From the IMG/VR virus record IMGVR_UViG_3300025133_000052, positions 29,285 through 93,284 of that record: DNA of 64,000 bases; one strand, written 5' to 3'. The notes beneath the pieces are model-generated. The model was not told the DNA's origin and searched no databases. It saw only the letters and a program-made list of their open reading frames with translations. Of the stretch, positions 17,410 to 55,088 are shown piece after piece. Source of the stretch: a virus. Within the stretch, counting starts at the first letter, position 1; each line of letters begins with the position of its first letter. The position numbers were made by a program, and so were the translations under genes.

Positions 17410-18341
17410 TATGTAAATAATTTATATTCCACCAACTTACGTAACGTGAGTGGTGTTGTACTTATAATTCTTTTTGTTATTTTTTCAAATCCTAATTCTG
17501 ATGGATCCTTTATACCTAATTCAACAAAATATACATTTAAACCAGCGTTTAGAAACTGCTCTGCAAATTTGACTGCATTTTTAATAGCATCTTTATCTAA
17601 ACAAATATATATTTCTTTTACTTTCTTATTTATAATTTTCCTCTTTAACCCTTCTGGTATTGTTTTACCGTAAAGTGGTATAGCGTTTCGTTTAATAGCT
17701 ATAGCATCAAAACTCCCTTCAACTAATATTATAGGCATCGCCCAATTAATAAACATTTCAAATCCTATAATATCTTTACTTATTTTAGGGTTTTTATGTT
17801 TAAAGTTACACGCTGAATAATATGACCTACCAACAAAGTAATTTAATTCCCCTGATGCATCGTATGACGGTACGATCACCATCTTACTGTACTCTCCTGA
17901 TTCACAGTATCCTATTCTGTATTTTAATATATCGTATGGAGTGACACCTCTCTTATTAAGATAATATATAGCATTTTTATATTCAACTCCCTTATTAGGT
18001 ACCCACAGTGGTTTATATTCTACTGGTAACGTTACGCTATCTATTACCTTTTTCTTTTTTGTAAGGTAATTTAAATTATTAGATCTATCCCCTACTTTTA
18101 CTAGAGTCGTAAGTTCATTAAACCTAGTACTATCAACTTTAAGCTTCTTAAATAATGTCAGTAATGATCTACCCTTGGTATTACATACCCAGCACTGGTA
18201 GTATTGTGTAGATAAATTTACTTCTAATTTACGTTTATGGTGTCTGCAGAAAGGACAATAGTATGCTCTATTGTTACCACTAGTGGTGTATCCTTTACCT
18301 ATTACTGAATCTAAGAGATTAGCTAACTTTATATCTGACAT
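17409..18341 (-). CDS. DNA primase (DnaG-like)
   Basis: CPFC...CWVC zinc finger; Toprim VEGSFD and DKD. Confidence 0.9.
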   Translation of the reverse strand: MSDIKLANLLDSVIGKGYTTSGNNRAYYCPFCRHHKRKLEVNLSTQYYQCWVCNTKGRSLLTLFKKLKVDSTRFNELTTLVKVGDRSNNLNYLTKKKKVIDSVTLPVEYKPLWVPNKGVEYKNAIYYLNKRGVTPYDILKYRIGYCESGEYSKMVIVPSYDASGELNYFVGRSYYSACNFKHKNPKISKDIIGFEMFINWAMPIILVEGSFDAIAIKRNAIPLYGKTIPEGLKRKIINKKVKEIYICLDKDAIKNAVKFAEQFLNAGLNVYFVELGIKDPSELGFEKITKRIISTTPLTLRKLVEYKLFT

Positions 18342-18359
18342 ACATTATTTGTATATAAT

Positions 18360-18392
18360 TAAATATACGAACTATTTCTGAATAAAACAACT
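18360..18392 (-). promoter_or_regulatory. Host-type (Bacteroidota sigma-A-like) promoter for the primase and Mre11-Rad50 genes
   Basis: AGTTG-N20-TATATTTA; a second copy at 18531-18563. Confidence 0.6.
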
Positions 18393-18578
18393 ATTAACAA
18401 TGTTATTCTTCAGCTGCGTACAGTTCGTATATGTTATATTATATAATTAATATATTAATTGTTAATTATTATTAATAATATTGTTTTTAATGTTTAATTA
18501 ATTAAAGTTACTTTTTAATAATTAAATTATTTAAAATAATAAAAAATTTGCAGACTTCCAACTTTTCTGTAAATAAAG

Positions 18579-19018: not shown

Positions 19019-20770
19019 TTAAACATCCCATCTAACGATAATATTTAAATCAACGTTATCAGGATTCTTAATTGGTTGAGCTAGCTTTCCTATAGCTAAC
19101 ATTTGACCATTATCATCATACAATCCTATAGTAGTTATGTACGGGTTAAATGCAGACGAGCTCACAAACCCATCCACAGCGTAACTGTCAGGATCGTTAT
19201 CTGGTCTTAAAGTAGGGTTTATAGATAAATTAAAATCTGATGCATCAATCTTACATATAGCTTGATTTTCATATATAGTGTGACTACCTTTATAGCTTAA
19301 ACTAAACCCATATTCATCAACGGTACCATAATCCAGGTTCCCAGTCTGGCCAGTTAATATATATTTATACTTCGGTAATGTGGGAGTTATGCATACATGA
19401 CCTGTACTGTAAAATACATTACCCGCGACATTAGTTTGATACGCTGATGATGTTATGTAATGATTATTAGCTAGTGATAATATAGCTTCCGTTGGTAGCG
19501 CTTCATTATATATCCTTAATTCATCGATACTACCAGAGTACCAATAATCACCAATACCACTTCCTCCTATCCATAAATCACTCGCATTATGTGTATCTCC
19601 CACCGTAGTGTCCGGTACCTGGTTACTTAAAACTCCATCCACCCATATCTGTAAATAACTTGATGATCTCTGACATAGTATGTGATGCTGTGTACCTCCA
19701 TAATTAGGAAATAATGCAGCTGAAGAAGTTACTGTCGGGATATTATTTGTATCACTCCTACTAAATTGGATCTTACCTCTATCACCACTAGTTATTGCCC
19801 TGTGATTATTTAATTGAATTTTAAAAGGATAACATCCAGTCGACTCGACATCCTTTTTGAATGACAGTCCCTGTGTAAGTGAATAGGCAGGATATTCACC
19901 TCGACCATCTTTACATATAATAGTATTTTCCCTGTATATGTTTCCGAAACGATCTGTTGAATCCTGCTGATATCCAGCTTCAGCCCAAAACGATATCGCA
20001 AAATCCTTATTAGACCTAAAGTTAAAATCTTTATGATTATAGATCCTCATGCTCCCGGTTGTCGGGAAATTAGCTCTTACACCACTCCTCTCATTAACAG
20101 CACCTGTAGTAGTAATACCCTCACTAAATTTTACTTTATTCAGATACGCTGGATGTTTGTTTATTAAACCATCCTTAGCGTAATTAGTAAACCCTAAATA
20201 CTCAGTACCTTGATCTTTATAAAATTCATTAAATCCCCAATATCCTACTAATGCACTTGAAGATGCAAATGAACCGGTTACTATGACCGCATCTAAAAGA
20301 TTTTCTTTCCTATCATCAGATAAACTTATAGTAGTTATATCACCATAGCTACCACTCCTACTACTATCTACTATAGTAACTGATCCCGGTTTTATATTCT
20401 CACCGTACATTTTTTGCGGTACAGATATAACGTTAACTCTTCCAGGTAAATTTCTTTTACTTAAAAATATATCATCTGTACCGTAACTCTCAAAAGGTTT
20501 ATCAGATCGAGCATAAAACATATTATCGATTGAATTATGTATTACTTGCTGGTATTTCCCTAATGAAGTAGTTGGATAGGTTAAGGCATCATTTGCCCCT
20601 ATTGGAATCTTAACACTCGAAGTACTGTGGCCGACAAATATATTCGCACCATAACTAGCACTGTAATTACCTTGATTGAAGTAATAATTTTTATGCGCCT
20701 TGAATGGTGTTACTGAATAATCGCTCGCGTCAATTGGTTTAAATACTGTAACTCTAGATTTACTTGTCAT
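19019..20770 (-). CDS. Baseplate/fibre-attachment protein with a LamG/ConA-like domain
   Basis: FAISFW...YSGSIDELRIYN LamG pattern; C-terminal YITTIGLYDDNGQMLAIGKL. Confidence 0.7.
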   Translation of the reverse strand: MTSKSRVTVFKPIDASDYSVTPFKAHKNYYFNQGNYSASYGANIFVGHSTSSVKIPIGANDALTYPTTSLGKYQQVIHNSIDNMFYARSDKPFESYGTDDIFLSKRNLPGRVNVISVPQKMYGENIKPGSVTIVDSSRSGSYGDITTISLSDDRKENLLDAVIVTGSFASSSALVGYWGFNEFYKDQGTEYLGFTNYAKDGLINKHPAYLNKVKFSEGITTTGAVNERSGVRANFPTTGSMRIYNHKDFNFRSNKDFAISFWAEAGYQQDSTDRFGNIYRENTIICKDGRGEYPAYSLTQGLSFKKDVESTGCYPFKIQLNNHRAITSGDRGKIQFSRSDTNNIPTVTSSAALFPNYGGTQHHILCQRSSSYLQIWVDGVLSNQVPDTTVGDTHNASDLWIGGSGIGDYWYSGSIDELRIYNEALPTEAILSLANNHYITSSAYQTNVAGNVFYSTGHVCITPTLPKYKYILTGQTGNLDYGTVDEYGFSLSYKGSHTIYENQAICKIDASDFNLSINPTLRPDNDPDSYAVDGFVSSSAFNPYITTIGLYDDNGQMLAIGKLAQPIKNPDNVDLNIIVRWDV

Positions 20771-20819
20771 AATAAACGGAACCCTTTATATAATATAAAT
20801 ATGAAGGAGTTTTAATTTA

Positions 20820-43037: not shown

Positions 43038-43072
43038 TATAAATATACGAAATTATATTCAGGTATCCAACT
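43038..43072 (-). promoter_or_regulatory. tmRNA promoter (host-type TTG-N20-TAnnTTT overlapping TATTTATA)
   Basis: AGTTGG...TTCGTATATTTATA immediately 5' of the tmRNA. Confidence 0.7.
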
Positions 43073-43836
43073 TATTCGGTTAGAATTTCACAACCATTAT
43101 CAGTTATCACAACTGTATGCTCCCATGCTGTACCTGGACTATTATCATCTGTCACTATACTCCACTTATCCGGTAGTATTAGTAGATTATCGTTTGTTAC
43201 CAAACCTGGTTCAATCGCAAGTACATTACCTGGCTTGAGTTGGTAGTCATTATATGGGTTTCCAGGTACCTTCCAGTACGGTATTACAGGTGGTTCGTGA
43301 AGATTTTTACCTACCCCATGGCCTTGGAATTGTTTCATTACCTTAAATCCGTGTTTGTTAGCATATGACTGTTGTATATCTCCTAATTCACCTATCGTTA
43401 CACTCGGACCGGTATTATTTAATGTATGTATGAGACAGTCATATGAGACCTTGTTAAGTAATTTTTTACTTTCTCCTACATCTCCTACTTCGACATTGAC
43501 GGCTGAGTCAGCATGCATGCCCTTATATTTTACCGGGCAATCTATACCCACTAACATACCCTCCTTGATAATAGTATCGTCAGGTATACCGTGCACTATA
43601 ACATGATCGATTGATATACAGGAATGTTTAGGGTATCCTCTATAACCGAGTGAAGCTGATTTTGATTTATGTTGTTTAAGAAAATTTGCTGCAAGGCTGT
43701 CTAGTTCATTAGTTGTTATTCCACTAGTACAATTCTCTACCATTAACTGTAATACATCCTTTACGATTTTTCCAGCTGATCTGATCCGTTTAAGTTGATT
43801 TGGATTATATATTTTAGGTTGCTTAAATATTACCAT
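43072..43836 (-). CDS. map: Methionine aminopeptidase type I
   Basis: HGIP, D...DSA, GHGVG..LHE.P, AIEP and EHTV metal-ligand motifs. Confidence 0.93.
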   Translation of the reverse strand: MVIFKQPKIYNPNQLKRIRSAGKIVKDVLQLMVENCTSGITTNELDSLAANFLKQHKSKSASLGYRGYPKHSCISIDHVIVHGIPDDTIIKEGMLVGIDCPVKYKGMHADSAVNVEVGDVGESKKLLNKVSYDCLIHTLNNTGPSVTIGELGDIQQSYANKHGFKVMKQFQGHGVGKNLHEPPVIPYWKVPGNPYNDYQLKPGNVLAIEPGLVTNDNLLILPDKWSIVTDDNSPGTAWEHTVVITDNGCEILTE

Positions 43837-44762: not shown

Positions 44763-45047
44763 TTATTGGTCGGTTCCAGCTGAGACCGGTGTATCTTTCC
44801 TAGGAGCCTTATCGATATCTTTAGCTACCTTCTCAATTATCTTCAAGGCAGCGTCGAGATACTTTATTGTTTTTATAGAAGTATCTGGATCTGGGAACGA
44901 TCTTTCGAAATAACTGTCACCTATCCACCCTGTCATATCTAGTAATTGCTCTATCCTATTATATATCTGAGATGTATTATCAGGTTTGAGTTCGATTTCA
45001 TTTACTATCTCAGCTCGTATTATAGATCTTAAAGTTTTCTTTTTCAT
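44763..45047 (-). CDS. Putative head-cargo protein (leader ...IIRAEIVNE)
   Basis: Leader motif. Confidence 0.6.
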   Translation of the reverse strand: MKKKTLRSIIRAEIVNEIELKPDNTSQIYNRIEQLLDMTGWIGDSYFERSFPDPDTSIKTIKYLDAALKIIEKVAKDIDKAPRKDTPVSAGTDQ

Positions 45048-45308: not shown

Positions 45309-45629
45309 CTACGTCTCTTCTTGATCTTTTAATCGATTATATATTTGTTTAGCTTTTCTGTAAACATCAGATCCCTTCTTCGCCTTTAATGCTGTTCTTA
45401 ACTTAATAGCATTACCGGTCTTAGGATTATCTATTCGCTGGTCGCCGTATTTTTTTCTAATATCTGTTTCTTCAACCTCTCCTACATCTTCATCATCATC
45501 CTCGAACCTGGGTATAACTCCTGACGCGTAAGTATTACGGTAGGGTGCACCCACCATAGCTCGTTGCGCTTCAGTTATTACACTATGAATTTCCTCTCTA
45601 ACTATTTGTATTAGTTTAGACTTTTTCAT
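45309..45629 (-). CDS. Putative head-cargo protein (leader ...IVREEIHSVITE)
   Basis: Leader motif; basic C-terminal module. Confidence 0.65.
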   Translation of the reverse strand: MKKSKLIQIVREEIHSVITEAQRAMVGAPYRNTYASGVIPRFEDDDEDVGEVEETDIRKKYGDQRIDNPKTGNAIKLRTALKAKKGSDVYRKAKQIYNRLKDQEET

Positions 45630-45956: not shown

Positions 45957-46250
45957 TTATTTTTTAACAGGAAACTTTACTAACTTTTTATCGTAGTCAG
46001 ATGATCCCAATTTCTTTAATTGATAATTATAAAAATAATATATAGCCTTTTTATGTCTTACATCAACCTTGGGGCTACGCATTAATTGTTTATAAGTTTT
46101 TTTTAGTTTACCCCTATCTTTAATATCCTTAAATATAGGATCATATATTTTAGTAGTAAATAGAGCCCATGTCTTAACTTCAGGATCATTATCTAAATAT
46201 TCCTGTACTATCTCCCGTATACACTCTTTAAGTATTTGATCTTTATTCAT
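45957..46250 (-). CDS. Putative head-cargo protein (leader ...CIREIVQE)
   Basis: Leader motif. Confidence 0.6.
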   Translation of the reverse strand: MNKDQILKECIREIVQEYLDNDPEVKTWALFTTKIYDPIFKDIKDRGKLKKTYKQLMRSPKVDVRHKKAIYYFYNYQLKKLGSSDYDKKLVKFPVKK

Positions 46251-46490: not shown

Positions 46491-48263
46491 CTATTTCTTA
46501 GGTAATGTTTTCTCTACAGCGTCTTCGTGATCCTCTAGTTCACCCTCTCCACCGACAGCGTCCATGTCAATTAATTCATCGTCATCTGTACCCATGGTTG
46601 AGGGCTTAACTGCGTACGCTGGTGATACTGAACCGGCTCCTTGATATAAGCCATGATTTTTTGCAAATTCAATGTCTACGCCCTGGTTATTGATATCAAT
46701 GTCACTGTACAGGTCTTTAAATTTTGTAGGTAATGAACCCTCTTCAACGTCGTTGAGTGTCGGTCTCGAGGCCTTAGCTTCTATAGTTTTAATCTTAATG
46801 GTGTTTGATACTCTCCCTGCGGCAATCTCCTTAGCTATAGCTCTGTACACACCATCCTCTCCTGTACCTTCCTTTAACTTAACATCAATCTCACTCCCGT
46901 CAGTTAATGTTACCTTAAAGCGTTCATTACTTACATCCCAAGTAGCTTCGTTAACTGATTCTTTAAGCTTTTTTAATTGACCACGTAAAAGATTCATATC
47001 CATTCTTTTATATTTGCGGTAAAATGGTGAACTATCTGTTTGAGGTTTACCATCAACAGTAAGTAAAAATCCAGGTTTCCCTCCTCCAATTTCTATAGTA
47101 TTATTTCCCTTTTTAAAAAGTGTATCTGATACTTTAGTAAATCCAAAATGTTTTAGTTTATTTGCAGTTGGGTTACCTTCATTAACTGATTCTAACATTT
47201 GGTCATTATCGAATTTTACAGTTGGTGATGGAGAGAACATATGAGTGTCTACTTTAGATTGTATTCCGTATACCTTCTTTAATAACGCTACTACCTTTTT
47301 TCCAGCACTTGCACTCTTCAAATGTAGGTATGTTACTTTATCATTAGGCTGTTTGATAATACCTTTAACGTACTGCTTTAATTCATCTTTTAATGATTCA
47401 GCTGAATCTCCCGCGATCTGTCCTCCGAGTGATGATTCATTCATTTCCATCCCCATACTAATCCACACTCTAATAATATCAGCGTAGTCTTTTGAAGTAA
47501 GACCGTTTCTCTCTCCCCAAGTAGTTTCGCTATTAAGATCATGCATTTGTTTTGCTACCTTATTAATATTACCTTCTTTAAAGCGAATAGTTGCTCTTTG
47601 TTTACCGGCATCCAGTAACCTAAATGTCTCTCCTTTAATGTCATGTGGATCTGTAGACCAACCAGCTGAATTGTTAACTCTAATATCAAAATGGGCTTGT
47701 CCGCTGCTCATGTAAACCGTCCAATCCTTTCCCTTTTGATATGTTTTACCTTTTTTGTATTTAATAGCTTCAGTAATTGATTCTAATTTATATTTCTTTT
47801 TGTTCATTGCAATGTCTATCGCGTTCAACTCCTCTCCATTATCAAGTAACACCTTATCACCTTTAATAGCTACCACCTTAGCTGTCTCCTTACCCTCTTT
47901 ACCGAAAGCGAATTGCTTTATGTAAGTGATCTTCGTACCTCTTTTAATTTTACCCTCACTGATCGATTCACTTATTGTGTGTCTCATCCCCCCGCCAGTC
48001 TTAACACCAGGGGCAGTACGTTTAAGTTTAGTACTAAGAGATTTATTAACGTGTTTAAGTAATGCATCCACTCCAGTATCGTTCATGTAGCTGGACATAT
48101 GAAGCTCATACCCTTTACCTTTCTTTTTGACCTTTTTAAGCGCCTTGGAATTAATACCTAGCCCGTCCTGTAATGACAGTTCAATCTGATATTTAACGTC
48201 TGTAGCATTTACCGCTTCAAGCACTACAGCTCTAATTGCCTTTTTTATTTCTGATATCTTCAT
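46491..48263 (-). CDS. Putative cargo polyprotein B (modules joined by ES(V/I)(N/T/S)E linkers)
   Basis: VVLEA, ESISEG, ESITEA, EMNES, ESVNEG, ESVNEA. Confidence 0.7.
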   Translation of the reverse strand: MKISEIKKAIRAVVLEAVNATDVKYQIELSLQDGLGINSKALKKVKKKGKGYELHMSSYMNDTGVDALLKHVNKSLSTKLKRTAPGVKTGGGMRHTISESISEGKIKRGTKITYIKQFAFGKEGKETAKVVAIKGDKVLLDNGEELNAIDIAMNKKKYKLESITEAIKYKKGKTYQKGKDWTVYMSSGQAHFDIRVNNSAGWSTDPHDIKGETFRLLDAGKQRATIRFKEGNINKVAKQMHDLNSETTWGERNGLTSKDYADIIRVWISMGMEMNESSLGGQIAGDSAESLKDELKQYVKGIIKQPNDKVTYLHLKSASAGKKVVALLKKVYGIQSKVDTHMFSPSPTVKFDNDQMLESVNEGNPTANKLKHFGFTKVSDTLFKKGNNTIEIGGGKPGFLLTVDGKPQTDSSPFYRKYKRMDMNLLRGQLKKLKESVNEATWDVSNERFKVTLTDGSEIDVKLKEGTGEDGVYRAIAKEIAAGRVSNTIKIKTIEAKASRPTLNDVEEGSLPTKFKDLYSDIDINNQGVDIEFAKNHGLYQGAGSVSPAYAVKPSTMGTDDDELIDMDAVGGEGELEDHEDAVEKTLPKK

Positions 48264-48280
48264 ATTCGTTTCTTAATTAT

Positions 48281-48607
48281 TTATTTTACTACCATATTTC
48301 GAAATAGCTTAGCTAACTCTAACTGGCTTTTAGGCTGTACCATGACCTGGGTAAAGTCTATCTTCCTGTACTTATCTACTATACCTTTAACTGTTCTTTT
48401 CGGTAACTTATATTTGTTAGCAAACCCTGTTAAGAATAGCTTTAAAATATCTAACCCTATATCGTGTCTATCACTCTTACTCAGCTCCTTACTCCACCTT
48501 ACTACCGGTATTCCTTTATGTTTACTTGTGTTTAAGTCTTGAACCTTTTCAATAGCCCTTCTTAAATTAAATAAAATCCAACCTAATTCTTGATTCTTTG
48601 CTGGCAT
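48281..48607 (-). CDS. Hypothetical basic protein
   Basis: ORF track. Confidence 0.6.
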   Translation of the reverse strand: MPAKNQELGWILFNLRRAIEKVQDLNTSKHKGIPVVRWSKELSKSDRHDIGLDILKLFLTGFANKYKLPKRTVKGIVDKYRKIDFTQVMVQPKSQLELAKLFRNMVVK

Positions 48608-48611
48608 ATTA

Positions 48612-48914
48612 TTACTTTTTCTTTATCGTAGTCCAAGCCTTTTGAAACATTGCTCCCATACCATCGTCTAACTTATCCATTGTTTTTAAAATGGCTCGCA
48701 TTGACTTTACTTGTCCTGGACTTGGTGTTATGCTGTGTAATATTTTACCTTGGGGCTTATCTTTATATGATGCTAGTTTACTTTCTAATTTATCTATATT
48801 ACGAATAGCTCCAGTTAATGACTTCTTAGCTAACACTAATGCTTTAGCAGTATCGATAAGATCTTTACCCGTCCATTGATCTCCTGCTTCGTTAATTAAT
48901 TTTCTTAATTTCAT
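48612..48914 (-). CDS. Putative head-cargo protein (leader MKLRKLINE)
   Basis: Leader motif. Confidence 0.65.
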   Translation of the reverse strand: MKLRKLINEAGDQWTGKDLIDTAKALVLAKKSLTGAIRNIDKLESKLASYKDKPQGKILHSITPSPGQVKSMRAILKTMDKLDDGMGAMFQKAWTTIKKK

Positions 48915-49537
48915 TACTTTACTTTTGTATATATTTCACTACCACGTACTTTAATAATCTCTAATCTAGTGTTTCTCGGAAAGATAAACTCAGCTTCACC
49001 ATCCCTGTACATATAAGGTAATGGAGCTTGTGTTGCTTTATTAAGAGCTCCGGTTAATATGAGTATACCACCCTTACCCTTGTTTGCAAAACTATCTGCT
49101 GTCGATCGATCCTTGGTTACTGACATAAAGGCTTTTTCAATAATTTTTTTAGATTGCAACGAGGTTATATACTGAAATAGATCCTTTCCTATACCCCTAA
49201 ATAACTTTGAACCTTTAAATTTTGGAGCTATCTCTATATATTGATCGATTAGGGATGCATTCGATGGTAGCTTACCGGTCCGTAAAGATTTATTCATCCT
49301 ACCATATCCAGTTGCTGTATATTTACGTACAGCTTTATTTATTTCTCGTGCCTTTTTTATTCCAAACTTTTTAACTATCGGTAGTAGTCTGCTGAGTTCA
49401 CGCTTATAACCAGTCTCTTTTCTCAATTCATCACTCGGTTCTTTTGGATTAAAAATTATCTTCTCTGTTTGATAAACTAGTTCATCTTCACCTGTTAAAT
49501 CATCAAGACCTTCTGGGATCAAATCTCTTAGTTTCAC
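48914..49537 (-). CDS. ADP-ribosyltransferase (VIP2/T4 Alt-like R-S-E type) with leader MKLRDLIPE
   Basis: YT..GY..MN..LR helix, LFRG, FMSVT, EAEFIFPR. Confidence 0.85.
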   Translation of the reverse strand: MKLRDLIPEGLDDLTGEDELVYQTEKIIFNPKEPSDELRKETGYKRELSRLLPIVKKFGIKKAREINKAVRKYTATGYGRMNKSLRTGKLPSNASLIDQYIEIAPKFKGSKLFRGIGKDLFQYITSLQSKKIIEKAFMSVTKDRSTADSFANKGKGGILILTGALNKATQAPLPYMYRDGEAEFIFPRNTRLEIIKVRGSEIYTKVK

Positions 49538-49773
49538 TATTTTTTATTCATCTTAGCAAGCTTAGCAAGTATTTCTTTCATTTGCCTACCACCAGCATAT
49601 CCTAGATTAATTTGACCAGATCTACCACCTATTTCTAAATGAATGTGTCCGTTACCATCTTTAACTATAAAAAGATTACCTACGTTGTCTTTAGTAGCCT
49701 CTTCATTAATAGTCTCTTTCTTATTGTAAAGGTTACGAAACCTCCAATCATATATACTAAATTTCTTACTCAT
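49537..49773 (-). CDS. Putative head-cargo protein (leader MSKKFSIYDW...INE)
   Basis: Leader motif. Confidence 0.6.
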   Translation of the reverse strand: MSKKFSIYDWRFRNLYNKKETINEEATKDNVGNLFIVKDGNGHIHLEIGGRSGQINLGYAGGRQMKEILAKLAKMNKK

Positions 49774-49786
49774 TGTTTTCCTTTTT

Positions 49787-52786
49787 TTATCTACCTACTT
49801 GGATAGATGACCTTAAACTTTGTAACACTTTTATAGCCTTAACTAATTCTTTTTTAACGTTAGAGCCACTAGCTCTCCGTCCTATTGCTCCTAACATGCT
49901 AATCATATCACCAACAGATGATGCATCTTTATCCACTTTCATCTTTGGAGAAGCCTCGTCAACAGGTTTAGCATCGTGAAATGCTTGATCTAATTGTGAG
50001 TCATCTTCGTTGATATCATGGGCATCCTTGAATGATATGATAGAAGGTTTAATATCTTTAGCCGTATCAATACGAATGTCTTCGTTAACAATAATGTTAG
50101 CTAATTCTTCTCTAATGATCTTAGCAATTTCTTCTTTAAGGTTATTCGTTGATTCACTTAAATCAATTGATTCCTTAAGTTTATATTTCTTTGGATCGTC
50201 TTTAATAGCTTTAGTAAAGTTAGCAATCATTTTAGGGATGTTATCATCAAAACCTATCATCTCTCCGTTAAGAGTTATCTTAGTTCCCATACCCCTAACT
50301 TTCTTAGCACCTATTTTTACTTCTGATTGTTTAAGATTATATCCATTAGCCTTTAATGCTGTTTGGACCGCATGCTTAAATTGAGAAGCAGCTTCATTAA
50401 TTGATTCATCAACCCCGTACTGTACCCAGAATGTGGCTTGACCTTTAACTGAATCTAATTTAGAGACAGGTAGCTTTAAGGATTTGATAGCCTTTTGCAT
50501 TAGTTTATGTTTCTTTGCTTGTTCAGGTGAACCTTTTTCAGACCCACTCGGTAAAGCAATAGTAGCTATTGTACCAATTGATTTAGGATACTTCCTAACA
50601 TCTAGAGGAGCTTTAGTTCCAAACATCTTTTGAAACTTCTTAATACCGGTCAGAACCTTTTTAGCATCTAATTGTTCTTCATTCATATTGTTTATTTTCT
50701 CTTTAATAATAGTACCCTCACTAAAAATGTAAATGTGTTCCTCTTTAGTTTCAGGATCAATTTTAATAACCTTACCGTTACTGTGAAGTTGTTCCATTTC
50801 ATCTTTAGAGAACGTTACTGTATCTTCTGTAACATTCATTAAACTATCTAATTCTTCGTTAATGATTTGGACAAGGAGAGCTCTCGAAAGTGTATTGCTG
50901 CGCGGCGATGATTCATTAACTGATTCATTACCAGTTGCTTTGGCATATGCTTCGACTTCCTTTGGCCAGCTGGTGCCTTCGTTAACTTCATTCTTTTTTG
51001 AACTAGCGTAAGCTCTTTGTAAAGCCTTCTTTCTAAGATCGTTATCAGTTATTCCTCTATCATCTAAATTAAAAGATGTCTCGCCATTGACGTATACTAT
51101 CTGCCCATGGGCCTTCTTCTTAATTGTAATATCAGCATCTTTCTTACGCAATAACTTATGCAAGTACTTTATTGTTTGAGAAGAACTTTCTGCTTCATTA
51201 ACTGATTCATTACCAGTTGCTTTGGCATATGCTTTGGCGTATTGTTTTGGAAAATCACCATTAATTGATTTTTTATATTCAGGTAAGTCTTTAATTGGAA
51301 CAGGAATCCACATAGCTTTATTATTGCTATTATCGTGCATGTTCATTAATGCATTACTACCTTTTATCTTTGCAACATATCCCGATCGTCCTGCCAAACT
51401 CTTGTTCTTGTGATTGGAAGGCCAGCGTATCTCAGTTCCAGGTTTAATTTTATTCTTAGCTTCATTAACTGATTCTTTAGTTAATTTGCCTTCCTTAATT
51501 TGAACTTTATTCTGCGTACGCAACTTTTTATCAAGGTCGTTAGAAGATATTATGTTTGGATTTTTATTAGGAAAATTGGGGTTTTTTATGTCAGTCCGAA
51601 TCCACTTTCCCCCAGCTACATTTTTAGCCCATGTTTGACCTGAGAAGTGTATTAGTGCTGCAAAGTCTGCTTTGTTTGCCATTCCACTTGTTGGTTTTTG
51701 TATTGGGTATTTTTTAAGATCTTTCCATATAGTTTGTGCGCGCGTCATAATAGTAGCTTCACTAACTGATTCTAATACTGGGTATTTCTTTTTAACTGAT
51801 TGTTGAAACTTCTTCCAGTTACTACCACTTATAAGATCAGAAGCATGTTGCATGAAGCTATCTAATGATGTCCATTTTTGATCTGCAAGTTCATGTTGTT
51901 TTGAAGTATAAGGTGCCATCATATCTAATAGATCAATTACAACATCGTGGGACATTTTCTTGATGGGCTTAGTTTTTAATATGCCTGCTTTCTTAGCTTG
52001 GTGCCAATCCATCTTCTTAGGAATACTATATTTCCAAATATCATTATCTTGATCGTGCTTGCTTCTCGCTGAATCACTAGCATTGAAGTTATTCTTTAAT
52101 TTACTAACATCTAAGTTAGGATCTGCTTTCTTTAATATGCTTTTAAGCTTACTAGTGTTATCAACCTTTCCATATTGTGTAACGTAAATATGATTGGCTG
52201 ATGAGTTAACTGGTGTCTTACCGTACCCTGCAGTCGTTTTAGCATATGCATCTATACCTTTAAGTTTGCTAACTACTTTACCAATTGCCTTTTCATACTC
52301 AATTTCTTTGCCTAGACCTAAGTTGTAATTTTCATTAACTGATTCATTTTTCTTTTTGCATTTTTGACATTTCTTATCTTTATGATTTGTCATTTGCATA
52401 CACTTACCACAATAATCTAATTTAAGACCTGCTTCGGTAATTGATTTATTCTTACGCATTGTTTTAACTAATTTCTCGATTTGTTTGTGTAAGGAATTAA
52501 CTAGTGTAGTTTGGCCTTTTCTTACAGCTACTGCTCTTTGCTTTAAAAGAGCTTTATATAGTTTCTCATCCTTTGAACCTTCAGTTATCTCTTCGGTAGT
52601 TAATTCAGTTTCCTTGAACTCTACATCCTTGCCCCTGAGCCTTACCATGTAACCGTAAGAACCGTCGCTATATCTCATCCCATCGGACGAGATAACTCCC
52701 TTCTTACCGTTGTACTTTTTAGCAGTGTGATCAGATATATCCTTAACCTTTACTTTGTCGAATTTTTTGAATTTAGCACTTGCCAT
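49787..52786 (-). CDS. Putative cargo polyprotein A (~1000 aa, more than 10 modules joined by ESVNE-type linkers)
   Basis: Likely start MASAK at 52786; EITEG, SITEA, ESVNEN, ESVSEA, ESVNEA x2, EVNEG, ESVNES, ESINEA, IVNED. Confidence 0.75.
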   Translation of the reverse strand: MASAKFKKFDKVKVKDISDHTAKKYNGKKGVISSDGMRYSDGSYGYMVRLRGKDVEFKETELTTEEITEGSKDEKLYKALLKQRAVAVRKGQTTLVNSLHKQIEKLVKTMRKNKSITEAGLKLDYCGKCMQMTNHKDKKCQKCKKKNESVNENYNLGLGKEIEYEKAIGKVVSKLKGIDAYAKTTAGYGKTPVNSSANHIYVTQYGKVDNTSKLKSILKKADPNLDVSKLKNNFNASDSARSKHDQDNDIWKYSIPKKMDWHQAKKAGILKTKPIKKMSHDVVIDLLDMMAPYTSKQHELADQKWTSLDSFMQHASDLISGSNWKKFQQSVKKKYPVLESVSEATIMTRAQTIWKDLKKYPIQKPTSGMANKADFAALIHFSGQTWAKNVAGGKWIRTDIKNPNFPNKNPNIISSNDLDKKLRTQNKVQIKEGKLTKESVNEAKNKIKPGTEIRWPSNHKNKSLAGRSGYVAKIKGSNALMNMHDNSNNKAMWIPVPIKDLPEYKKSINGDFPKQYAKAYAKATGNESVNEAESSSQTIKYLHKLLRKKDADITIKKKAHGQIVYVNGETSFNLDDRGITDNDLRKKALQRAYASSKKNEVNEGTSWPKEVEAYAKATGNESVNESSPRSNTLSRALLVQIINEELDSLMNVTEDTVTFSKDEMEQLHSNGKVIKIDPETKEEHIYIFSEGTIIKEKINNMNEEQLDAKKVLTGIKKFQKMFGTKAPLDVRKYPKSIGTIATIALPSGSEKGSPEQAKKHKLMQKAIKSLKLPVSKLDSVKGQATFWVQYGVDESINEAASQFKHAVQTALKANGYNLKQSEVKIGAKKVRGMGTKITLNGEMIGFDDNIPKMIANFTKAIKDDPKKYKLKESIDLSESTNNLKEEIAKIIREELANIIVNEDIRIDTAKDIKPSIISFKDAHDINEDDSQLDQAFHDAKPVDEASPKMKVDKDASSVGDMISMLGAIGRRASGSNVKKELVKAIKVLQSLRSSIQVGR

Positions 52787-52808
52787 ATTAATTATCTTTT
52801 TTATATAT

Positions 52809-53135
52809 CTAAAATGACTTTCGAGCGAATGCGATAAAGAAGTCTGTAATGTCTTCACTATCCCAACCTTCCTCTTCCAGATCAGCTGCCATACCTTGAC
52901 TACCGTTAATAAAGGCTTTCATGTTCTTCATGTTCACCAGACCCTGTCCTCTACGGAGGAGCTTGTGATCGTAATTAACTTCAGTTATAGGATCGTCTGT
53001 CACTTCGAGGTCATCTGCTTGTTCCTTTTGAATTGGCTCTTTTTGTGTAGTAAGTGGATTCCACTTCATCTTCTGAAGCTTCTCTGAAGGAAGCTGGCCT
53101 AGGAAGTGTTCGTTAATTAATTTTTTTAGTTTCAT
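52809..53135 (-). CDS. Putative head-cargo protein (leader MKLKKLINE)
   Basis: Leader; shares the LG.LPS.KL.KMKWNPL module with 54511..54777. Confidence 0.65.
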   Translation of the reverse strand: MKLKKLINEHFLGQLPSEKLQKMKWNPLTTQKEPIQKEQADDLEVTDDPITEVNYDHKLLRRGQGLVNMKNMKAFINGSQGMAADLEEEGWDSEDITDFFIAFARKSF

Positions 53136-53136
53136 A

Positions 53137-54312
53137 TTATTGTTTCTTTTGCCTTACTGTAGCTTTAAGTAATTTGTTTTCGAAGGGATTCGTGAATGAT
53201 TCTTCAATACTGTCAACATCAATTCTATATACATCGTCATCTCTACCAGAAGCTTCATCTGATACTGTTCCGTATACTGTTTGACCATCTACATTTTTAA
53301 ATTGTACTGTATCTCCTGGCTCTACTGTGACCTGTGAATCATCTTCATCGTATGAGTCAATAAAATAAGCTTCTTGATCATCATCATATGCGATATAATC
53401 CTCTGCGGAATCTCCTAGCCTAGTTGTAGATGCATAATCGTCTGGATTAATATCGAATTGATCGTCATCTCCGTACCAATCTTCATCGCTATCGGAATCG
53501 CTGTCAAGTTCTGACGCCACCCGTTGTATAGTGTCAATGACTTGCTCTTGTTCGTCCTGTGGCCACTCGCTCGTGTTGAACCATTTTTTAAAGTCATTTT
53601 CCAATTCTTGAGGGTCGATACCTTGATTGTTTATTAGGTCTTCGATATAGGGATCTACCTCCATACCGTGTGAGAATAAATCCCCTACGTGTTCGATGTG
53701 TTCGTAATGTTCTGGATCTCCGTTGTCACCATCATCTCCACTACTTACATCTCCGCTACTTGCAGTTGGTGGTACCCAATTCTTATCACCTGATTTAGTC
53801 CTTGCAAAAAGTTTTCCAAATTGCTTAGCATCATTCTCAGACCATCCACTGTTTTTCATATAATCGAATACATCATCAGCTGTATGAAGGTTCATCATTT
53901 CGTCAGCAAAGTCTTGAGCTGATGCATCGTCAGCATATACCGAATTGTTGTGTAGTAGCTCCAAATCTATTATAGCTTTTTGTGCACTGGTCGCGTACTC
54001 AAGATTATCTAGTTTAAAACCTTGAACATCTGTCTTGGATTCACCACCTGTTTCTTTTTCTGCTGAAGAAGTAAAATCTAAATCTTGACCTTTCTCCTTG
54101 TCAGTCGACCGGTCCTGTTGACCGCCTACATCCCCAGCTTTCATCTTCTCACCATCTACAGTAACTTCCGTATCAGGTGATACGTCATGCTTATCGGTAT
54201 AGGCATTGTAAGCTTCTTCGTCTTTAAACTCTAGTTCGTTAATTGTACCTGTGTTGCGAAAGCTCTCTACAATTGTGTGCCAGTTCTTTCTGATGTCATT
54301 AATGTTGTTCAT
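53137..54312 (-). CDS. Highly acidic protein, possible core/scaffold-type cargo
   Basis: Asp-rich; IVES, INEL and IEES linkers. Confidence 0.6.
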   Translation of the reverse strand: MNNINDIRKNWHTIVESFRNTGTINELEFKDEEAYNAYTDKHDVSPDTEVTVDGEKMKAGDVGGQQDRSTDKEKGQDLDFTSSAEKETGGESKTDVQGFKLDNLEYATSAQKAIIDLELLHNNSVYADDASAQDFADEMMNLHTADDVFDYMKNSGWSENDAKQFGKLFARTKSGDKNWVPPTASSGDVSSGDDGDNGDPEHYEHIEHVGDLFSHGMEVDPYIEDLINNQGIDPQELENDFKKWFNTSEWPQDEQEQVIDTIQRVASELDSDSDSDEDWYGDDDQFDINPDDYASTTRLGDSAEDYIAYDDDQEAYFIDSYDEDDSQVTVEPGDTVQFKNVDGQTVYGTVSDEASGRDDDVYRIDVDSIEESFTNPFENKLLKATVRQKKQ

Positions 54313-54488
54313 GTTGTTATGCTTTTTTTATTTTTGTCAATGTAAGACCACACAACACCAACGAGTGCCATAACTGATCCGTAAACCTCTTCAATGCCGT
54401 CACTGTCAATGTATCCTTTAGCTATCAACGCACCCCCAACAATTGTTAAAGCGTGTCTGATTAATCCAAATATTTGTTCTTGTTTCAT
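54309..54488 (-). CDS. Small two-TM holin-like protein (59 aa)
   Basis: MKQEQIFGLIRHALTIVGGALIAKG...GSVMALVGVVWSYIDK; translated by hand; ATGA overlap with the next gene. Confidence 0.65.
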   Translation of the reverse strand: MKQEQIFGLIRHALTIVGGALIAKGYIDSDGIEEVYGSVMALVGVVWSYIDKNKKSITT

Positions 54489-54510
54489 ATAGTAATCTTT
54501 TTCTCTTCTT

Positions 54511-54777
54511 TTAACCTTTTAACTTAGCGTCAATGGCCAGTGCTATTTTTTCCCTGAATGTAAATACCTCATCATCAGTCATCCTACGCAGTGCTTTTCT
54601 AAAGTTTGATATTACTCTATCGGCTAGATCGCCACCCTTATCTTCAGTAACAGGATCTGATTCCTTCAATGGATTCCATTTCATCTTCATAAGCTTATCA
54701 CTTGGAAGTTCTCCTAATGCATGTTCTTTAAGTAGATGTTTCTGTTGCCATTCTTTAATGTTAAATTTTTTAGTCAT
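54511..54777 (-). CDS. Putative head-cargo protein (leader MTKKFNIKEWQ...LKE)
   Basis: Leader motif. Confidence 0.65.
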   Translation of the reverse strand: MTKKFNIKEWQQKHLLKEHALGELPSDKLMKMKWNPLKESDPVTEDKGGDLADRVISNFRKALRRMTDDEVFTFREKIALAIDAKLKG

Positions 54778-55088
54778 ATTGTATCTTTTTACTCTATAGT
54801 GCTTTTCCTAATTTACTTGAATGGAACAATCTTTCTATTTTTTGGAATAATTTAATTTCTTTCTGAAATCCACCTTTACCTAGCTTCTGCTCTTCCCACT
54901 TCATACCTGCAGGAGTGTTTCTAACGGATTCGATATGAGCTGACATATCGGCAAGTTCATCTGATATACCATAGTATGCATCCTTAACATCCTCTAGACC
55001 TTCTAGGCCTAGTACCGTTCTTTCTTTTAATGCTTTATCTTGCCATTCTTTAATGTTAAATTTTTTAGTCATATTGTATCTTTTTACT
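54745..55088. repeat. 49-nt exact direct repeat (54745-54793 = 55040-55088) covering the translation-initiation region and first 11 codons
   Basis: ttgccattctttaatgttaaattttttagtcatattgtatctttttact occurs twice. Confidence 0.92.
54794..55072 (-). CDS. Putative head-cargo protein (leader MTKKFNIKEWQ...LKE)
   Basis: Leader motif. Confidence 0.65.
   Translation of the reverse strand: MTKKFNIKEWQDKALKERTVLGLEGLEDVKDAYYGISDELADMSAHIESVRNTPAGMKWEEQKLGKGGFQKEIKLFQKIERLFHSSKLGKAL

What the first reader, a model, noticed from the sequence alone, without database searches (positions are those of the whole stretch)
46491..52786. Putative virion-cargo polyproteins: strings of unrelated small modules joined by ESVNE protease-site linkers
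Seen: the 590-aa and ~1000-aa ORFs break into mutually unrelated, mostly Lys-rich modules (about 20-190 aa) separated by ES(V/I)(N/T/S)E followed by A/G/S/N. Known: the T4 prohead protease gp21 cuts after Glu in (I/L)xE contexts to mature head-internal proteins, which are injected and can counter host defences (IPI). Inference: each gene is a polyprotein packaged once and cut in the prohead into many small injected effectors, a multi-payload delivery system. I cannot confirm whether this is already described. The protease gene is not in this window.
Basis: partly seen in the sequence, partly recalled or inferred. Interest (0 to 1): 0.9.

Follow-up and report, generated by a model that had tools for sequence, protein, structure and literature searches.

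The report
Phage head-cargo polyproteins with protease linkers
An uncultured marine T4-like phage strings about 17 small, unrelated, basic protein modules into two long genes. The joints match the cutting motif of its own head-maturation protease, so the chains are probably loaded into the capsid and cut into many T4-style internal proteins, although no cut has been measured.

Summary
ES[VI][NTS]E occurs 10 times in the six-frame translation of the window, and all 10 lie in the two ORFs (0.011 expected). Six weaker sites of the same kind complete the joints.

The contig encodes a T4 gp21-family prohead protease 9 kb before the window. Its own ends, the scaffold, the capsid protein and the short leaders of neighbouring small genes carry the same (V/I/L)-x-E|(A/G/S) sites.

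Each module has relatives in marine metagenomes at other positions, with other neighbours. Some stand alone behind T4-type capsid-targeting leaders (for example MKHIKLFEQFVAE|A, against T4 MKTYQEFIAE|A). A 98%-identical relative differs by one module inserted exactly between two linkers. Relatives carry similar arrays beside the portal gene and inside a head-module gene. AlphaFold2 gives confident modules with low confidence at three of the joints checked.

Best reading (about 0.72): these are head-packaged polyproteins cut by the prohead protease into internal proteins. Injection and counter-defence remain inference.

I found no paper describing this. Cultured phages gave no homolog. The same scan has noted the pattern on at least eight other genomes. 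Verdict: a new variant of the T4 internal-protein system.

The parts
46491..48263 (-). Polyprotein A, 590 aa: a 16-aa helical leader (MKISEIKKAIRAVVLE|A), five basic modules, a sixth small module (residues 440-508) and an acidic C-terminal tail
49787..52786 (-). Polyprotein B, 999 aa from ATG 52786 (1023 aa if GTG 52858 is used): ten pieces. They include a 34-aa zinc-ribbon-like piece, the widespread 191-aa module B4 and a conserved C-terminal end module
47955..47969 (-). Linker ESISE|G (A residues 99-103)
   Evidence: pLDDT below 50 at residues 100-104
47769..47783 (-). Linker ESITE|A (A residues 161-165)
   Evidence: metagenome contigs diverge at 47749 and 47783
47436..47447 (-). Degenerate linker EMNE|S (A residues 273-276)
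   Evidence: Homologs show a module boundary here (ESVVTE|S in L002, HESVNE in P0005); pLDDT below 50 at residues 273-289
47178..47192 (-). Linker ESVNE|G (A residues 358-362)
46947..46961 (-). Linker ESVNE|A (A residues 435-439). The 98%-identical relative P0003 has one extra 82-aa module here
   Evidence: contig breakpoint at 46946
52580..52594 (-). Degenerate linker EEITE|G (B residues 65-69)
52433..52447 (-). Degenerate linker KSITE|A (B residues 114-118)
52331..52345 (-). Linker ESVNE|N (B residues 148-152)
   Evidence: contig breakpoint at 52328
51758..51772 (-). Linker ESVSE|A (B residues 339-343)
51461..51475 (-). Linker ESVNE|A (B residues 438-442)
   Evidence: breakpoints at 51456-51461 and joints ending at 51458-51460
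51194..51208 (-). Linker ESVNE|A (B residues 527-531), inside the upper copy of a 44-nt direct repeat
50978..50992 (-). Degenerate linker NEVNE|G (B residues 599-603)
50912..50926 (-). Linker ESVNE|S (B residues 621-625), inside the lower copy of the 44-nt direct repeat
50393..50407 (-). Linker ESINE|A (B residues 794-798)
   Evidence: breakpoint at 50390
49955..49969 (-). Joint KPVDE|A in front of the conserved C-terminal end module of B (residues 945-999, ...RSSIQVGR)
   Evidence: In 8 of 9 relatives this module ends within 3 residues of the C-terminus (7 residues before it in P0145), behind E(S)LDE|A or ESVNE|A
50909..51234 (-). 44-nt direct repeat, 98% identical (50909-50952 and 51191-51234), 282 nt apart and in frame. 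It brackets module B7 plus stub B8 (AYAKATGNESVNE twice)
48914..49537 (-). ADP-ribosyltransferase, 207 aa, between A and B, with the leader MKLRDLIPE|G. It is Alt-like candidate head cargo
   Evidence: PF03496 E 8e-7, above the cut-off; PHROG Alt-like hits
48612..48914 (-). 100-aa gene with the leader MKLRKLINE|A
52809..53135 (-). 108-aa gene with the leader MKLKKLINE|H, directly upstream of B
48281..48607 (-). 108-aa gene directly upstream of A. In relatives (P0171, P0172, P0174) its homolog is fused to a homolog of A's last 106 residues
44763..46250 (-). Small genes at 44763-45047, 45309-45629 and 45957-46250 with A-type helical leaders ending in (V/I)xE. They are part of the same leader-bearing locus
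53137..55072 (-). Further leader-bearing genes: a 391-aa very acidic protein (53137-54312) and two MTKKFNIKEWQ genes (54511-54777 and 54794-55072)

Best explanation
A and B are head-cargo polyproteins, concatenations of T4-style internal-protein modules. Shown here: each module is a separate unit, bounded by a linker whose last three residues, (V/I)-(N/T/S)-E followed by A/G/S/N, form the cutting motif used in this phage's own gp21-family protease substrates. Relatives have the same modules alone behind capsid-targeting leaders, or in other orders. Relatives also place similar arrays beside the portal gene and inside a head-module gene.

Inferred: the chain is built into the prohead core, through its N-terminal leader (A) or through a conserved end module or a GTG-started leader (B). 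When the protease is activated inside the prohead it cuts after each linker Glu. That would release about 7 pieces from A and about 10 from B, of roughly 2-22 kDa and mostly basic. These stay with the packaged DNA like T4 IPI-III.

More weakly inferred: the pieces enter the host with the DNA and act early, some against host defences. The linker DNA (GAATCAGTTAATGAAGCT) also serves as microhomology at which cassettes are gained, lost and swapped.
For: (1) The motif occurs 10 times against 0.011 expected, only in these ORFs.
(2) A Peptidase_S77 (gp21) protease lies on the same contig, E 5e-29 and PHROG 5.6e-55. The predicted sites in the protease itself are QINE|S and PVNE|G. The scaffold has TVNE|G, VITE|G and NLNE|S, the capsid protein LIDE|A, and a protease-adjacent protein MKLSKLINE|S and NINE|A. 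T4 gp21 cuts after L/I-x-E (PMC9026906).
(3) Stand-alone homologs of modules B1, B4 and B10 carry leaders such as MKHIKLFEQFVAE|A, MKKYIKLYEEFINE|N and MKNLYTFDEHLNE|A. T4 ipII and ipIII begin MKTYQEFIAE|A. Module A3 follows a leader directly at the head of short multi-module proteins.
(4) Mosaicism: the homologs found with A (other than near-identical copies) each cover 7-33% of it. Most of the 131 homologs found with B match one or two modules, at varying positions. For most full-length module matches the projected ends land on linkers or on the protein's own ends. 215 module families were found, and the commonest three have 9-17 different left and 12-15 different right neighbours.
(5) Cassette events: P0003 is A plus one module between two ESVNE. 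A 44-nt repeat brackets B7-B8. Breakpoints of likeness in metagenome contigs lie at linkers, 18 of 19 within 33 nt against 3.4 expected.
(6) Head context in relatives: a polyprotein of at least 1315 aa follows the portal gene in L002. In L019 and L004, cassettes lie inside the homolog of this phage's p165, whose gene sits between portal and protease.
(7) The modules are basic like T4 internal proteins. An Alt-like ADP-ribosyltransferase with a leader lies between A and B.
(8) AlphaFold2: pTM 0.29 for whole A, pLDDT 72-91 within modules A2-A4 and below 57 at the three joints between them. The isolated B4 module reaches pLDDT 89.
Against: There is no proteomic or biochemical evidence. Cleavage, packaging and ejection are all unmeasured, and no cultured relative carries these genes. 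B read from its ATG has no leader. The GTG-started alternative (MKTLQTSLSHSLE|S) lacks a hydrophobic residue at P3. The linkers carry an invariant E-S at P5-P4 that the structural substrates lack. Part of the conservation could therefore come from DNA-level recombination rather than protease recognition. A and B lie about 27-33 kb from the head genes in this phage. No module has a recognisable function. In T4, multiply cut core proteins mostly leave the head (PMC9026906).
Confidence: 0.72

Rival explanations
1. Sacrificial prohead-core (scaffold-like) proteins. A and B are built into the core and cut at the linkers, but the fragments are expelled before or during DNA packaging, like most of T4 gp22, gp67 and gp68. 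They would then be assembly aids or space-fillers, not delivered cargo.
For: T4 core proteins are cut into multiple fragments that mostly leave the head (PMC9026906). In L019 and L004 the cassettes sit inside the homolog of p165, a gene in the position of T4's core-protein genes.
Against: The real scaffold of this phage is extremely acidic, whereas 15 of the 17 pieces are basic, pI 8.6-10.4, like the DNA-bound internal proteins that stay in T4 heads. Several pieces are predicted to be folded domains (modules A2-A4 at pLDDT 72-91, B4 at 89), which makes escape through capsid pores harder. Extreme mosaicism and cassette turnover fit an arms-race cargo better than an assembly part. Stand-alone versions look like T4 internal-protein genes.
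Confidence: 0.12
2. Uncut multidomain 'beads-on-a-string' proteins. The ESVNE joint is only a flexible linker and a DNA microhomology for recombination. The chains would work whole, packaged or not, like the polyvalent proteins of Iyer et al. 2017.
For: The linker DNA is nearly identical at all sites, GAATCAGTTAATGAAGCT. A 44-nt repeat brackets one module and contig breakpoints lie at linkers. E-S at P5-P4 is not seen in the structural substrates. Polyvalent proteins with 2-15 domains are known in phages (PMC5512222).
Against: Linkers in distant relatives differ in DNA and in length (ESVVTE, ESLVTE, ESLDE, KLNE, KLTE) yet always keep hydrophobic-x-Glu followed by a small residue. That conservation is at the protein level. 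The same three residues end the N-terminal leaders of the stand-alone versions, where T4 precedent is cleavage. No embedded peptidase and no typical polyvalent-protein domain was detected.
Confidence: 0.1
3. Annotation artefact or decaying genes. On this reading the long ORFs are chance read-throughs of an array of small internal-protein genes whose stops and starts were lost, and they have no function as chains.
For: A appears inserted between the two halves of a gene that is single in relatives. Neighbouring small genes carry similar leaders.
Against: Long chains of this kind recur in dozens of distinct metagenomic phages with intact frames of up to at least 1315 aa. A is kept at 98-100% identity in three records. 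Linkers are in frame and lack start codons, so the arrays are not simple gene run-ons.
Confidence: 0.03

Closest known systems
Phage T4 internal proteins IPI, IPII, IPIII and Alt: capsid targeting sequence plus gp21 processing (Mullaney and Black; reviewed in PMC9026906 and PMC3012670)
   Same: A gp21-family protease is present in the genome. Leaders of 9-22 residues end in hydrophobic-x-Glu and sit on small, basic, otherwise unrelated proteins. Stand-alone homologs carry leaders close to T4's MKTYQEFIAE|A. The locus is hypervariable. An Alt-like ADP-ribosyltransferase carries a leader. The linker keeps the CTS positions needed for processing (the equivalents of residues 8 and 10).
   Different: T4 has one leader and one cargo per gene. 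Here up to about 10 cargo modules share one chain, and at least 12 in a relative, with internal cut sites that lack the CTS targeting residues. Cassettes are gained and lost at the linker. There is no sequence homology to IPI-III. Nothing has been shown experimentally.
Ejection and inner-body proteins of giant phages phiKZ, 201phi2-1 and SPN3US, cut by gp21-like proteases (Thomas et al.; PMC9026906, PMC5694885, PMC10052503)
   Same: Many head-internal proteins are cut after Glu at a short motif by a diverged gp21 homolog, some at several sites. The products stay in the head and some are ejected.
   Different: As far as I recall (not checked here), those are paralogous families of fixed architecture with propeptide removal. 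They are not strings of unrelated, freely shuffled modules with one repeated linker. No homolog of A or B was found in any cultured phage.
Polyvalent proteins of phages and conjugative elements (Iyer, Burroughs, Anand, de Souza, Aravind 2017; PMC5512222)
   Same: Many unrelated domains lie in one polypeptide of an invading element. They are predicted to be delivered with the DNA and to act early in the conflict with the host. Their mosaicism is extensive, and the authors draw an analogy to viral polyproteins.
   Different: In that class, release is proposed to come from embedded peptidase domains (such as the Zincin-like MPTase), and the domains are mostly recognisable enzymes. Here no peptidase domain was detected in either chain, the joints fit the separate prohead protease, and the modules are small, basic and of unknown fold.
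T4 prohead core proteins gp22, gp67 and gp68
   Same: They are built into the prohead core and cut at several L/I-x-E sites. In relatives L019 and L004 the cassette array is inserted in the homolog of a gene in the corresponding position.
   Different: The core proteins are acidic and conserved, and their fragments mostly leave the head. A and B are basic, hypervariable and lie outside the head module in this phage.

Membership tests
T4-type internal proteins (CTS-targeted, gp21-processed head cargo) | The genome encodes a gp21-family (Peptidase_S77) prohead protease | tested here: met
   PF03420 E 5.2e-29, 96.8 bits, above the cut-off, at contig 19592-20062; PHROG head maturation protease 5.6e-55
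T4-type internal proteins (CTS-targeted, gp21-processed head cargo) | A short N-terminal leader ends in hydrophobic-x-Glu followed by a small residue | tested here: met
   A begins MKISEIKKAIRAVVLE|A. Neighbouring genes begin MKLRKLINE|A, MKLKKLINE|H and MKLRDLIPE|G. Stand-alone module homologs begin MKHIKLFEQFVAE|A and similar, against T4 MKTYQEFIAE|A. B from its ATG has none; from the GTG start only a non-canonical one.
T4-type internal proteins (CTS-targeted, gp21-processed head cargo) | Cut sites match those of the phage's own structural substrates | tested here: met
   The protease has QINE|S and PVNE|G, the scaffold TVNE|G and VITE|G, the capsid protein LIDE|A, against the linkers SVNE|A/G/S/N and SI(T/S/N)E|A/G. 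These are sequence matches only.
T4-type internal proteins (CTS-targeted, gp21-processed head cargo) | Small basic proteins, unrelated to each other, in a variable locus | tested here: met
   pI 8.6-10.4 for 15 of 17 pieces. The pieces find different homolog sets. The locus shows module gain and loss between 98%-identical relatives.
T4-type internal proteins (CTS-targeted, gp21-processed head cargo) | Present in the mature head in cleaved form and ejected into the host | not testable with these tools
   This needs virion proteomics or N-terminomics and infection assays. The phage is uncultured. No RNA run was listed as a holder.
T4-type internal proteins (CTS-targeted, gp21-processed head cargo) | Sequence homology to IPI, IPII, IPIII or Alt | tested here: not met
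   A and B have no PHROG or Pfam hit and no tblastn hit in 50,697 phage records. Only the neighbouring 207-aa gene is Alt-like.
Polyvalent proteins (Iyer et al. 2017) | 2-15 unrelated domains in one polypeptide of a phage or conjugative element | tested here: met
   7 and 10 pieces with separate homolog sets
Polyvalent proteins (Iyer et al. 2017) | An embedded peptidase (MPTase or other) and the characteristic conflict enzyme domains | tested here: not met
   No Pfam or PHROG family in A or B at E 0.01. Relatives show only DUF5824.
Prohead scaffold or core proteins (gp22, gp67, gp68 type) | An acidic, conserved protein encoded in the head module between portal and capsid genes | tested here: not met
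   A and B are basic, lie about 27-33 kb from the head module, and are mosaic. The true scaffold is the acidic 321-aa protein at contig 17544-18509. Relatives do carry cassette arrays inside a head-module gene.

The most novel reading that the evidence does not exclude
Uncultured marine T4-like phages have turned the one-leader, one-cargo internal-protein system into a combinatorial polyprotein delivery platform. A single targeting element loads a chain of up to a dozen or more interchangeable effector cassettes. The prohead protease cuts them apart inside the capsid, and the cut-site codons double as the recombination joints that reshuffle the arsenal between phages. If so, hundreds of unknown small folds (215 module families in this small sample) are candidate injected first-minute host-takeover or anti-defence proteins.
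Probability: 0.4. Interest if true: 0.85.

Novelty: new variant of a known kind. Interest (0 to 1): 0.74.

Why it matters
T4's internal proteins are the textbook case of proteins injected with phage DNA. One of them, IPI, disarms a restriction enzyme, but only a handful are known. If these chains are what they appear to be, ocean T4-like phages carry large, rapidly reshuffled libraries of such proteins in a format, a prohead-protease-cut polyprotein, that I did not find described for tailed phages.

That would give three things. First, a simple sequence rule (leader plus repeated hydrophobic-x-Glu linkers, next to a gp21 protease) for finding injected phage proteins in metagenomes. Second, a large set of candidate anti-defence or takeover proteins with new folds. 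Third, a natural design for loading several cargos into T4-type capsids, which are already used as delivery vehicles.

It also shows a protease site acting at once as a processing signal and as a recombination joint.

Tried and rejected
Searches for function:
- Pfam and PHROGs on A, B and relatives gave nothing except DUF5824 in some relatives.
- Module B4 (pLDDT 89) had no Foldseek match at E 0.001 or better in PDB or BFVD. The best VIA-align score was Z 5.6, to a bromodomain-like helical bundle and a ferredoxin-like half, which is within the noise range.
- The ESM Atlas search on module A4 scored 0.79 at best, with no family.

Searches for relatives:
- Megablast and tblastn of A and B against 50,697 cultured-phage records found no match.
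- The search for related loci with B and with P0038 in IMG/VR found no confirmed locus.
The genome context of the 98%-identical relative P0003 therefore could not be read.

Sequencing runs:
- No RNA holder was listed.
- All runs laid were contigs, so they give neither depth nor strand information. The joint 50413 to 51460 has only 24 letters on its shorter side and may come from another phage.

Other checks:
- The T4 late-promoter word TATAAATA occurs 32 times against 18 expected. On the gene strand it does not sit in front of A or B, so it gives no evidence on timing.
- An idea that B is joined to the upstream 108-aa gene by frameshifting was considered and dropped. A stop and 22 nt separate them, and nothing suggests a slippery site.
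- Literature searches found no description of prohead-protease or CTS polyproteins.
Full report
**1. What is there**

The window is bases 29285-93284 of a 93,284-bp IMG/VR viral record, estimated about 49% complete. GC content is about 34%. Nearly all genes lie on the minus strand.

ORF A is 46491-48263 (-), 590 aa. ORF B is 49787-52786 (-), 999 aa from an ATG that lies 22 nt behind the stop of the preceding gene. The longest frame starts at GTG 52858 and gives 1023 aa.

The strict motif ES[VI][NTS]E occurs ten times in the six-frame translation of the window, four times in A and six in B. It occurs nowhere else in the window or in the rest of the contig. Shuffled versions of the two proteins give 0.011 on average. 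The looser [VIL][NTSD]E[AGS] is seen 16 times against 1.07 expected.

Counting degenerate joints, A falls into 7 pieces and B into 10, of 16-201 aa. The degenerate joints are VVLE|A, EMNE|S and DVEE|G in A, and EITE|G, SITE|A, EVNE|G and PVDE|A in B. 15 of the 17 pieces are basic, pI 8.6-10.4.

**2. The protease and its sites**

It is on the same contig, 9 kb before the window, in a T4-type head module. The gene order is portal, a 284-aa protein, a 106-aa protein, a 165-aa protein (p165), protease, a 174-aa protein, an 88-aa protein, scaffold and major capsid protein. The protease is a Peptidase_S77 (gp21) family member, E 5e-29.

T4 gp21 cuts after Glu in L/I-x-E (PMC9026906). In this phage the expected substrates carry the following sites:
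- Protease: QINE|S near its N-terminus and PVNE|G near its C-terminus.
- Scaffold (acidic): TVNE|G, VITE|G and NLNE|S.
- Capsid protein: LIDE|A at the end of its N-terminal region.
- The 174-aa neighbour of the protease: begins MKLSKLINE|S and also has NINE|A.

The last three residues of the A and B linkers, with the small residue that follows, therefore match the motif at the predicted sites of this phage's own protease substrates. This is a sequence match, not a measured cut.

**3. The surrounding locus**

From about 44.7 to 55.1 kb, roughly ten genes begin with short leaders that end in hydrophobic-x-Glu. There are two kinds.

The first is short:
- MKLRKLINE|A (48612-48914)
- MKLKKLINE|H (52809-53135)
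- MKLRDLIPE|G (48914-49537)

The second is a longer helical leader:
- MKISEIKKAIRAVVLE|A (ORF A)
- MKKKTLRSIIRAEIVNE|I
- MKKSKLIQIVREEIHSVITE|A
- MNKDQILKECIREIVQE|Y

The gene between A and B is an ADP-ribosyltransferase (PF03496, above the cut-off, with PHROG hits to Alt-like enzymes). It is the same kind of enzyme as T4 Alt, which is packaged, cut by gp21 and injected (PMC9026906). The locus looks like a T4 internal-protein locus.

**4. Relatives**

A has no match in 50,697 cultured-phage records, and neither has B. Both have many relatives in marine metagenomes.

Apart from near-identical copies of A, the homologs found with A each cover only 7-33% of it. An exhaustive phmmer search with B against 1.8 billion representatives gave 131 hits. 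Most match one or two modules, at positions that vary from protein to protein.

I cut A and B at the linkers and searched each piece against the hits. For most full-length matches the projected ends land on a linker of the same kind (ESVNE, ESVVTE, ESLNE, KLNE and others) or on the target's own ends. The flanking modules differ from protein to protein.

A rough clustering of 187 proteins gave 477 segments in 215 families. The three commonest families have 9-17 different left and 12-15 different right neighbours, and they also occur alone.

Stand-alone versions exist for B1 (P0133, 82 aa), B4 (P0040, P0073, P0079 and P0085, 192-202 aa) and B10 (P0052, 211 aa). Module A3 follows a leader directly at the head of two short multi-module proteins (P0178, P0179). 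These proteins begin with leaders such as MKHIKLFEQFVAE|A, MKKYIKLYEEFINE|N, MMNHVQSFEQYINE|A, MKNLYTFDEHLNE|A and MIKLKNLITE|K. T4 ipII and ipIII, read from NC_000866, begin MKTYQEFIAE|A.

So several modules are, in other phages, ordinary T4-type internal-protein genes.

**5. Cassette turnover at the linker**

- P0003 is 98% identical to A but has one extra 82-aa module exactly between two ESVNE linkers. That module family also occurs in B-like chains.
- A 44-nt direct repeat, 98% identical, lies at 50909-50952 and 51191-51234. It brackets module B7 plus the stub B8, so that AYAKATGNESVNE occurs twice.
- The linker DNA is almost the same at all sites, GAATCAGTTAATGAAGCT.
- I laid contigs of four marine metagenome runs on the region. 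Of the 19 distinct listed places where they stop resembling the window, 18 lie within 33 nt of a predicted cut point, against 3.4 expected. Only the best-supported loose ends were listed, and they are contigs, not reads.
- Relatives P0171, P0172 and P0174 (212-216 aa) are a single gene made of a homolog of the 108-aa ORF just upstream of A plus a homolog of A's last 106 residues. A's array therefore sits inside what is one gene elsewhere.

**6. Link to the head**

In L002 a polyprotein of at least 1315 aa, with 11 or more ESVVTE-type linkers and the leader MKHISLFEQFTAIAVELVNE|K, directly follows the portal gene.

In L019 and L004 a 515- or 690-aa chain lies between the portal-side genes and the protease. 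Its two ends align with the two ends of this phage's p165, the gene in the same position. The cassettes have thus been inserted into a head-module protein. L019 has a second chain between the homolog of the 174-aa protein and the scaffold.

This places arrays of this kind among head-assembly genes, although in the present phage A and B lie about 27-33 kb away from them.

**7. Structure**

AlphaFold2 on whole A, with 30 aligned sequences, gives pTM 0.29. pLDDT is 72-91 in modules A2-A4 and about 60-70 in A5 and the first part of A7. A6, which has no homologs in the alignment apart from the near-identical P0003, and the acidic tail (483-590) score below 50. pLDDT is also below 57 at residues 100-104, around 165 and at 273-289, which are three of the joints. 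So the chain models as separate domains with no confident arrangement between them.

Module B4 alone reaches pLDDT 89. It has no convincing match in PDB or BFVD. No module could be given a function.

**8. Mechanism**

Shown here: the units, the joints, the match to the cognate protease motif, the leaders on stand-alone versions, the shuffling and the head-gene context in relatives.

Inferred: the chains enter the prohead core and are cut after each linker Glu once the protease is activated. The basic pieces then stay with the DNA as T4 IPI-III do.

In T4's leader, residues 4 and 7 are needed for targeting and residues 8 and 10 for processing (PMC9026906). The linkers keep the equivalents of residues 8 and 10 (V/I and E) and the Glu at P5, but have Ser where T4 has the targeting Phe. 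This fits cut sites that no longer need to target, since one address per chain would be enough. That is my inference.

B from its ATG has no leader. Two things might supply the address. One is the GTG start, which gives MKTLQTSLSHSLE|S, sharing MKTLQT with the leader of P0134. The other is B's C-terminal end module (...RSSIQVGR). In 8 of 9 relatives that module ends within 3 residues of the C-terminus (7 residues before it in P0145), behind E(S)LDE|A or ESVNE|A. Neither idea is tested. Injection and counter-defence rest only on the T4 analogy.

**9. Rivals**

- The fragments are expelled like T4 core-protein peptides (0.12). Basic charge, predicted folded domains and arms-race-like turnover argue against this.
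- The chains stay whole and the linker is only a recombination joint (0.10). Linkers in distant relatives differ in DNA and in length yet keep hydrophobic-x-Glu followed by a small residue, which argues against it.
- The ORFs are decaying run-ons (0.03). Recurrence of long intact chains in many phages argues against it.

**10. Known or new**

The parts are known: T4 CTS and gp21 processing, multiply cut head proteins of giant phages, and Aravind's 'polyvalent proteins', which are proposed to be released by embedded peptidases (PMC5512222). I found no paper that describes chains of internal-protein cassettes joined by prohead-protease sites.

This scan has noted the same pattern on at least eight other genomes. 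Two first-reader notes on this genome led me to verify the 44-nt repeat and the linker DNA repeat. Those are unchecked AI notes, not independent support.

I class this as a new variant of a known kind.

Noticed in passing
window 48914-49537 (-): A 207-aa ADP-ribosyltransferase (PF03496, Alt-like PHROG hits) with a GTG start and the leader MKLRDLIPE|G. It is probably a packaged, injected enzyme like T4 Alt.
   Followed up: partly
window 52786-52858 (-): The longest frame of B starts at GTG 52858 and overlaps the upstream gene by 50 nt. It adds MKTLQTSLSHSLESHF..., whose first six residues equal the leader of homolog P0134 (MKTLQTFEQFIE|G), but it lacks a hydrophobic residue at P3. It may be a decayed or alternative leader.
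   Followed up: partly
window 49787-49954 (-), B residues 945-999: A conserved end module (ASPKM...VKKELVKAIKVLQSLRSSIQVGR). In 8 of 9 relatives found (P0052, P0089, P0094, P0095, P0104, P0106, P0118, P0139) it ends within 3 residues of the C-terminus, and 7 residues before it in P0145. It is always preceded by a cut-site-like joint. It could be a C-terminal address or anchor.
   Followed up: partly
window 48281-48607 (-) and 46491-46808 (-): The 108-aa ORF upstream of A and the last 106 residues of A are the two halves of one 212-216-aa gene in relatives (P0171, P0172, P0174). The cassette array with its own start appears inserted between them.
   Followed up: yes
window 52809-53135 (-) and 54511-54777 (-): Two small genes share the motif LG(Q/E)LPS(E/D)KL(Q/M)KMKWNPL right behind different leaders. 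The same motif occurs in metagenomic relatives P0118 and P0094, in front of the RSSIQVGR end module. Its function is unknown.
   Followed up: no
window 53137-54312 (-): A 391-aa extremely acidic (Asp/Glu-rich) protein in the leader-bearing locus, with TIVE|S and TINE|L near its N-terminus and no family hit. It could be a DNA mimic or a scaffold-like protein.
   Followed up: no
window 43072-43836 (-): A phage-encoded M24 metallopeptidase (methionine-aminopeptidase-like, PF00557, E 1e-38) just outside the leader-bearing locus.
   Followed up: no
contig 20296-20793 (before the window; L001:2205-2702) and L019:4201-5748: The 165-aa head-module protein p165 aligns with the N- and C-terminal ends of a 515-aa chain in a 276-kb relative. 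Cassettes with ESVNE-type linkers were inserted in its middle.
   Followed up: yes
proteins P0013-P0015 and P0028-P0033 (relatives of A): These chains begin with a module containing VVIGRYQPFTIGHLGMAKE, which by eye looks like the HxGH motif of nucleotidyltransferases (for example NMN adenylyltransferase). Pfam gave no hit for P0015 at E 0.01, so this is only a lead.
   Followed up: no
window, intergenic sites such as 3041, 3565, 6589, 11106, 20794, 22829, 33074, 34721, 46426, 55154 (+): TATAAATA on the + strand (TATTTATA on the gene strand) recurs in short gaps, some of them just upstream of minus-strand start codons. It is seen 32 times against 18 expected. It may be part of the translation-initiation or promoter context of this Bacteroidota-type phage.
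   Followed up: no
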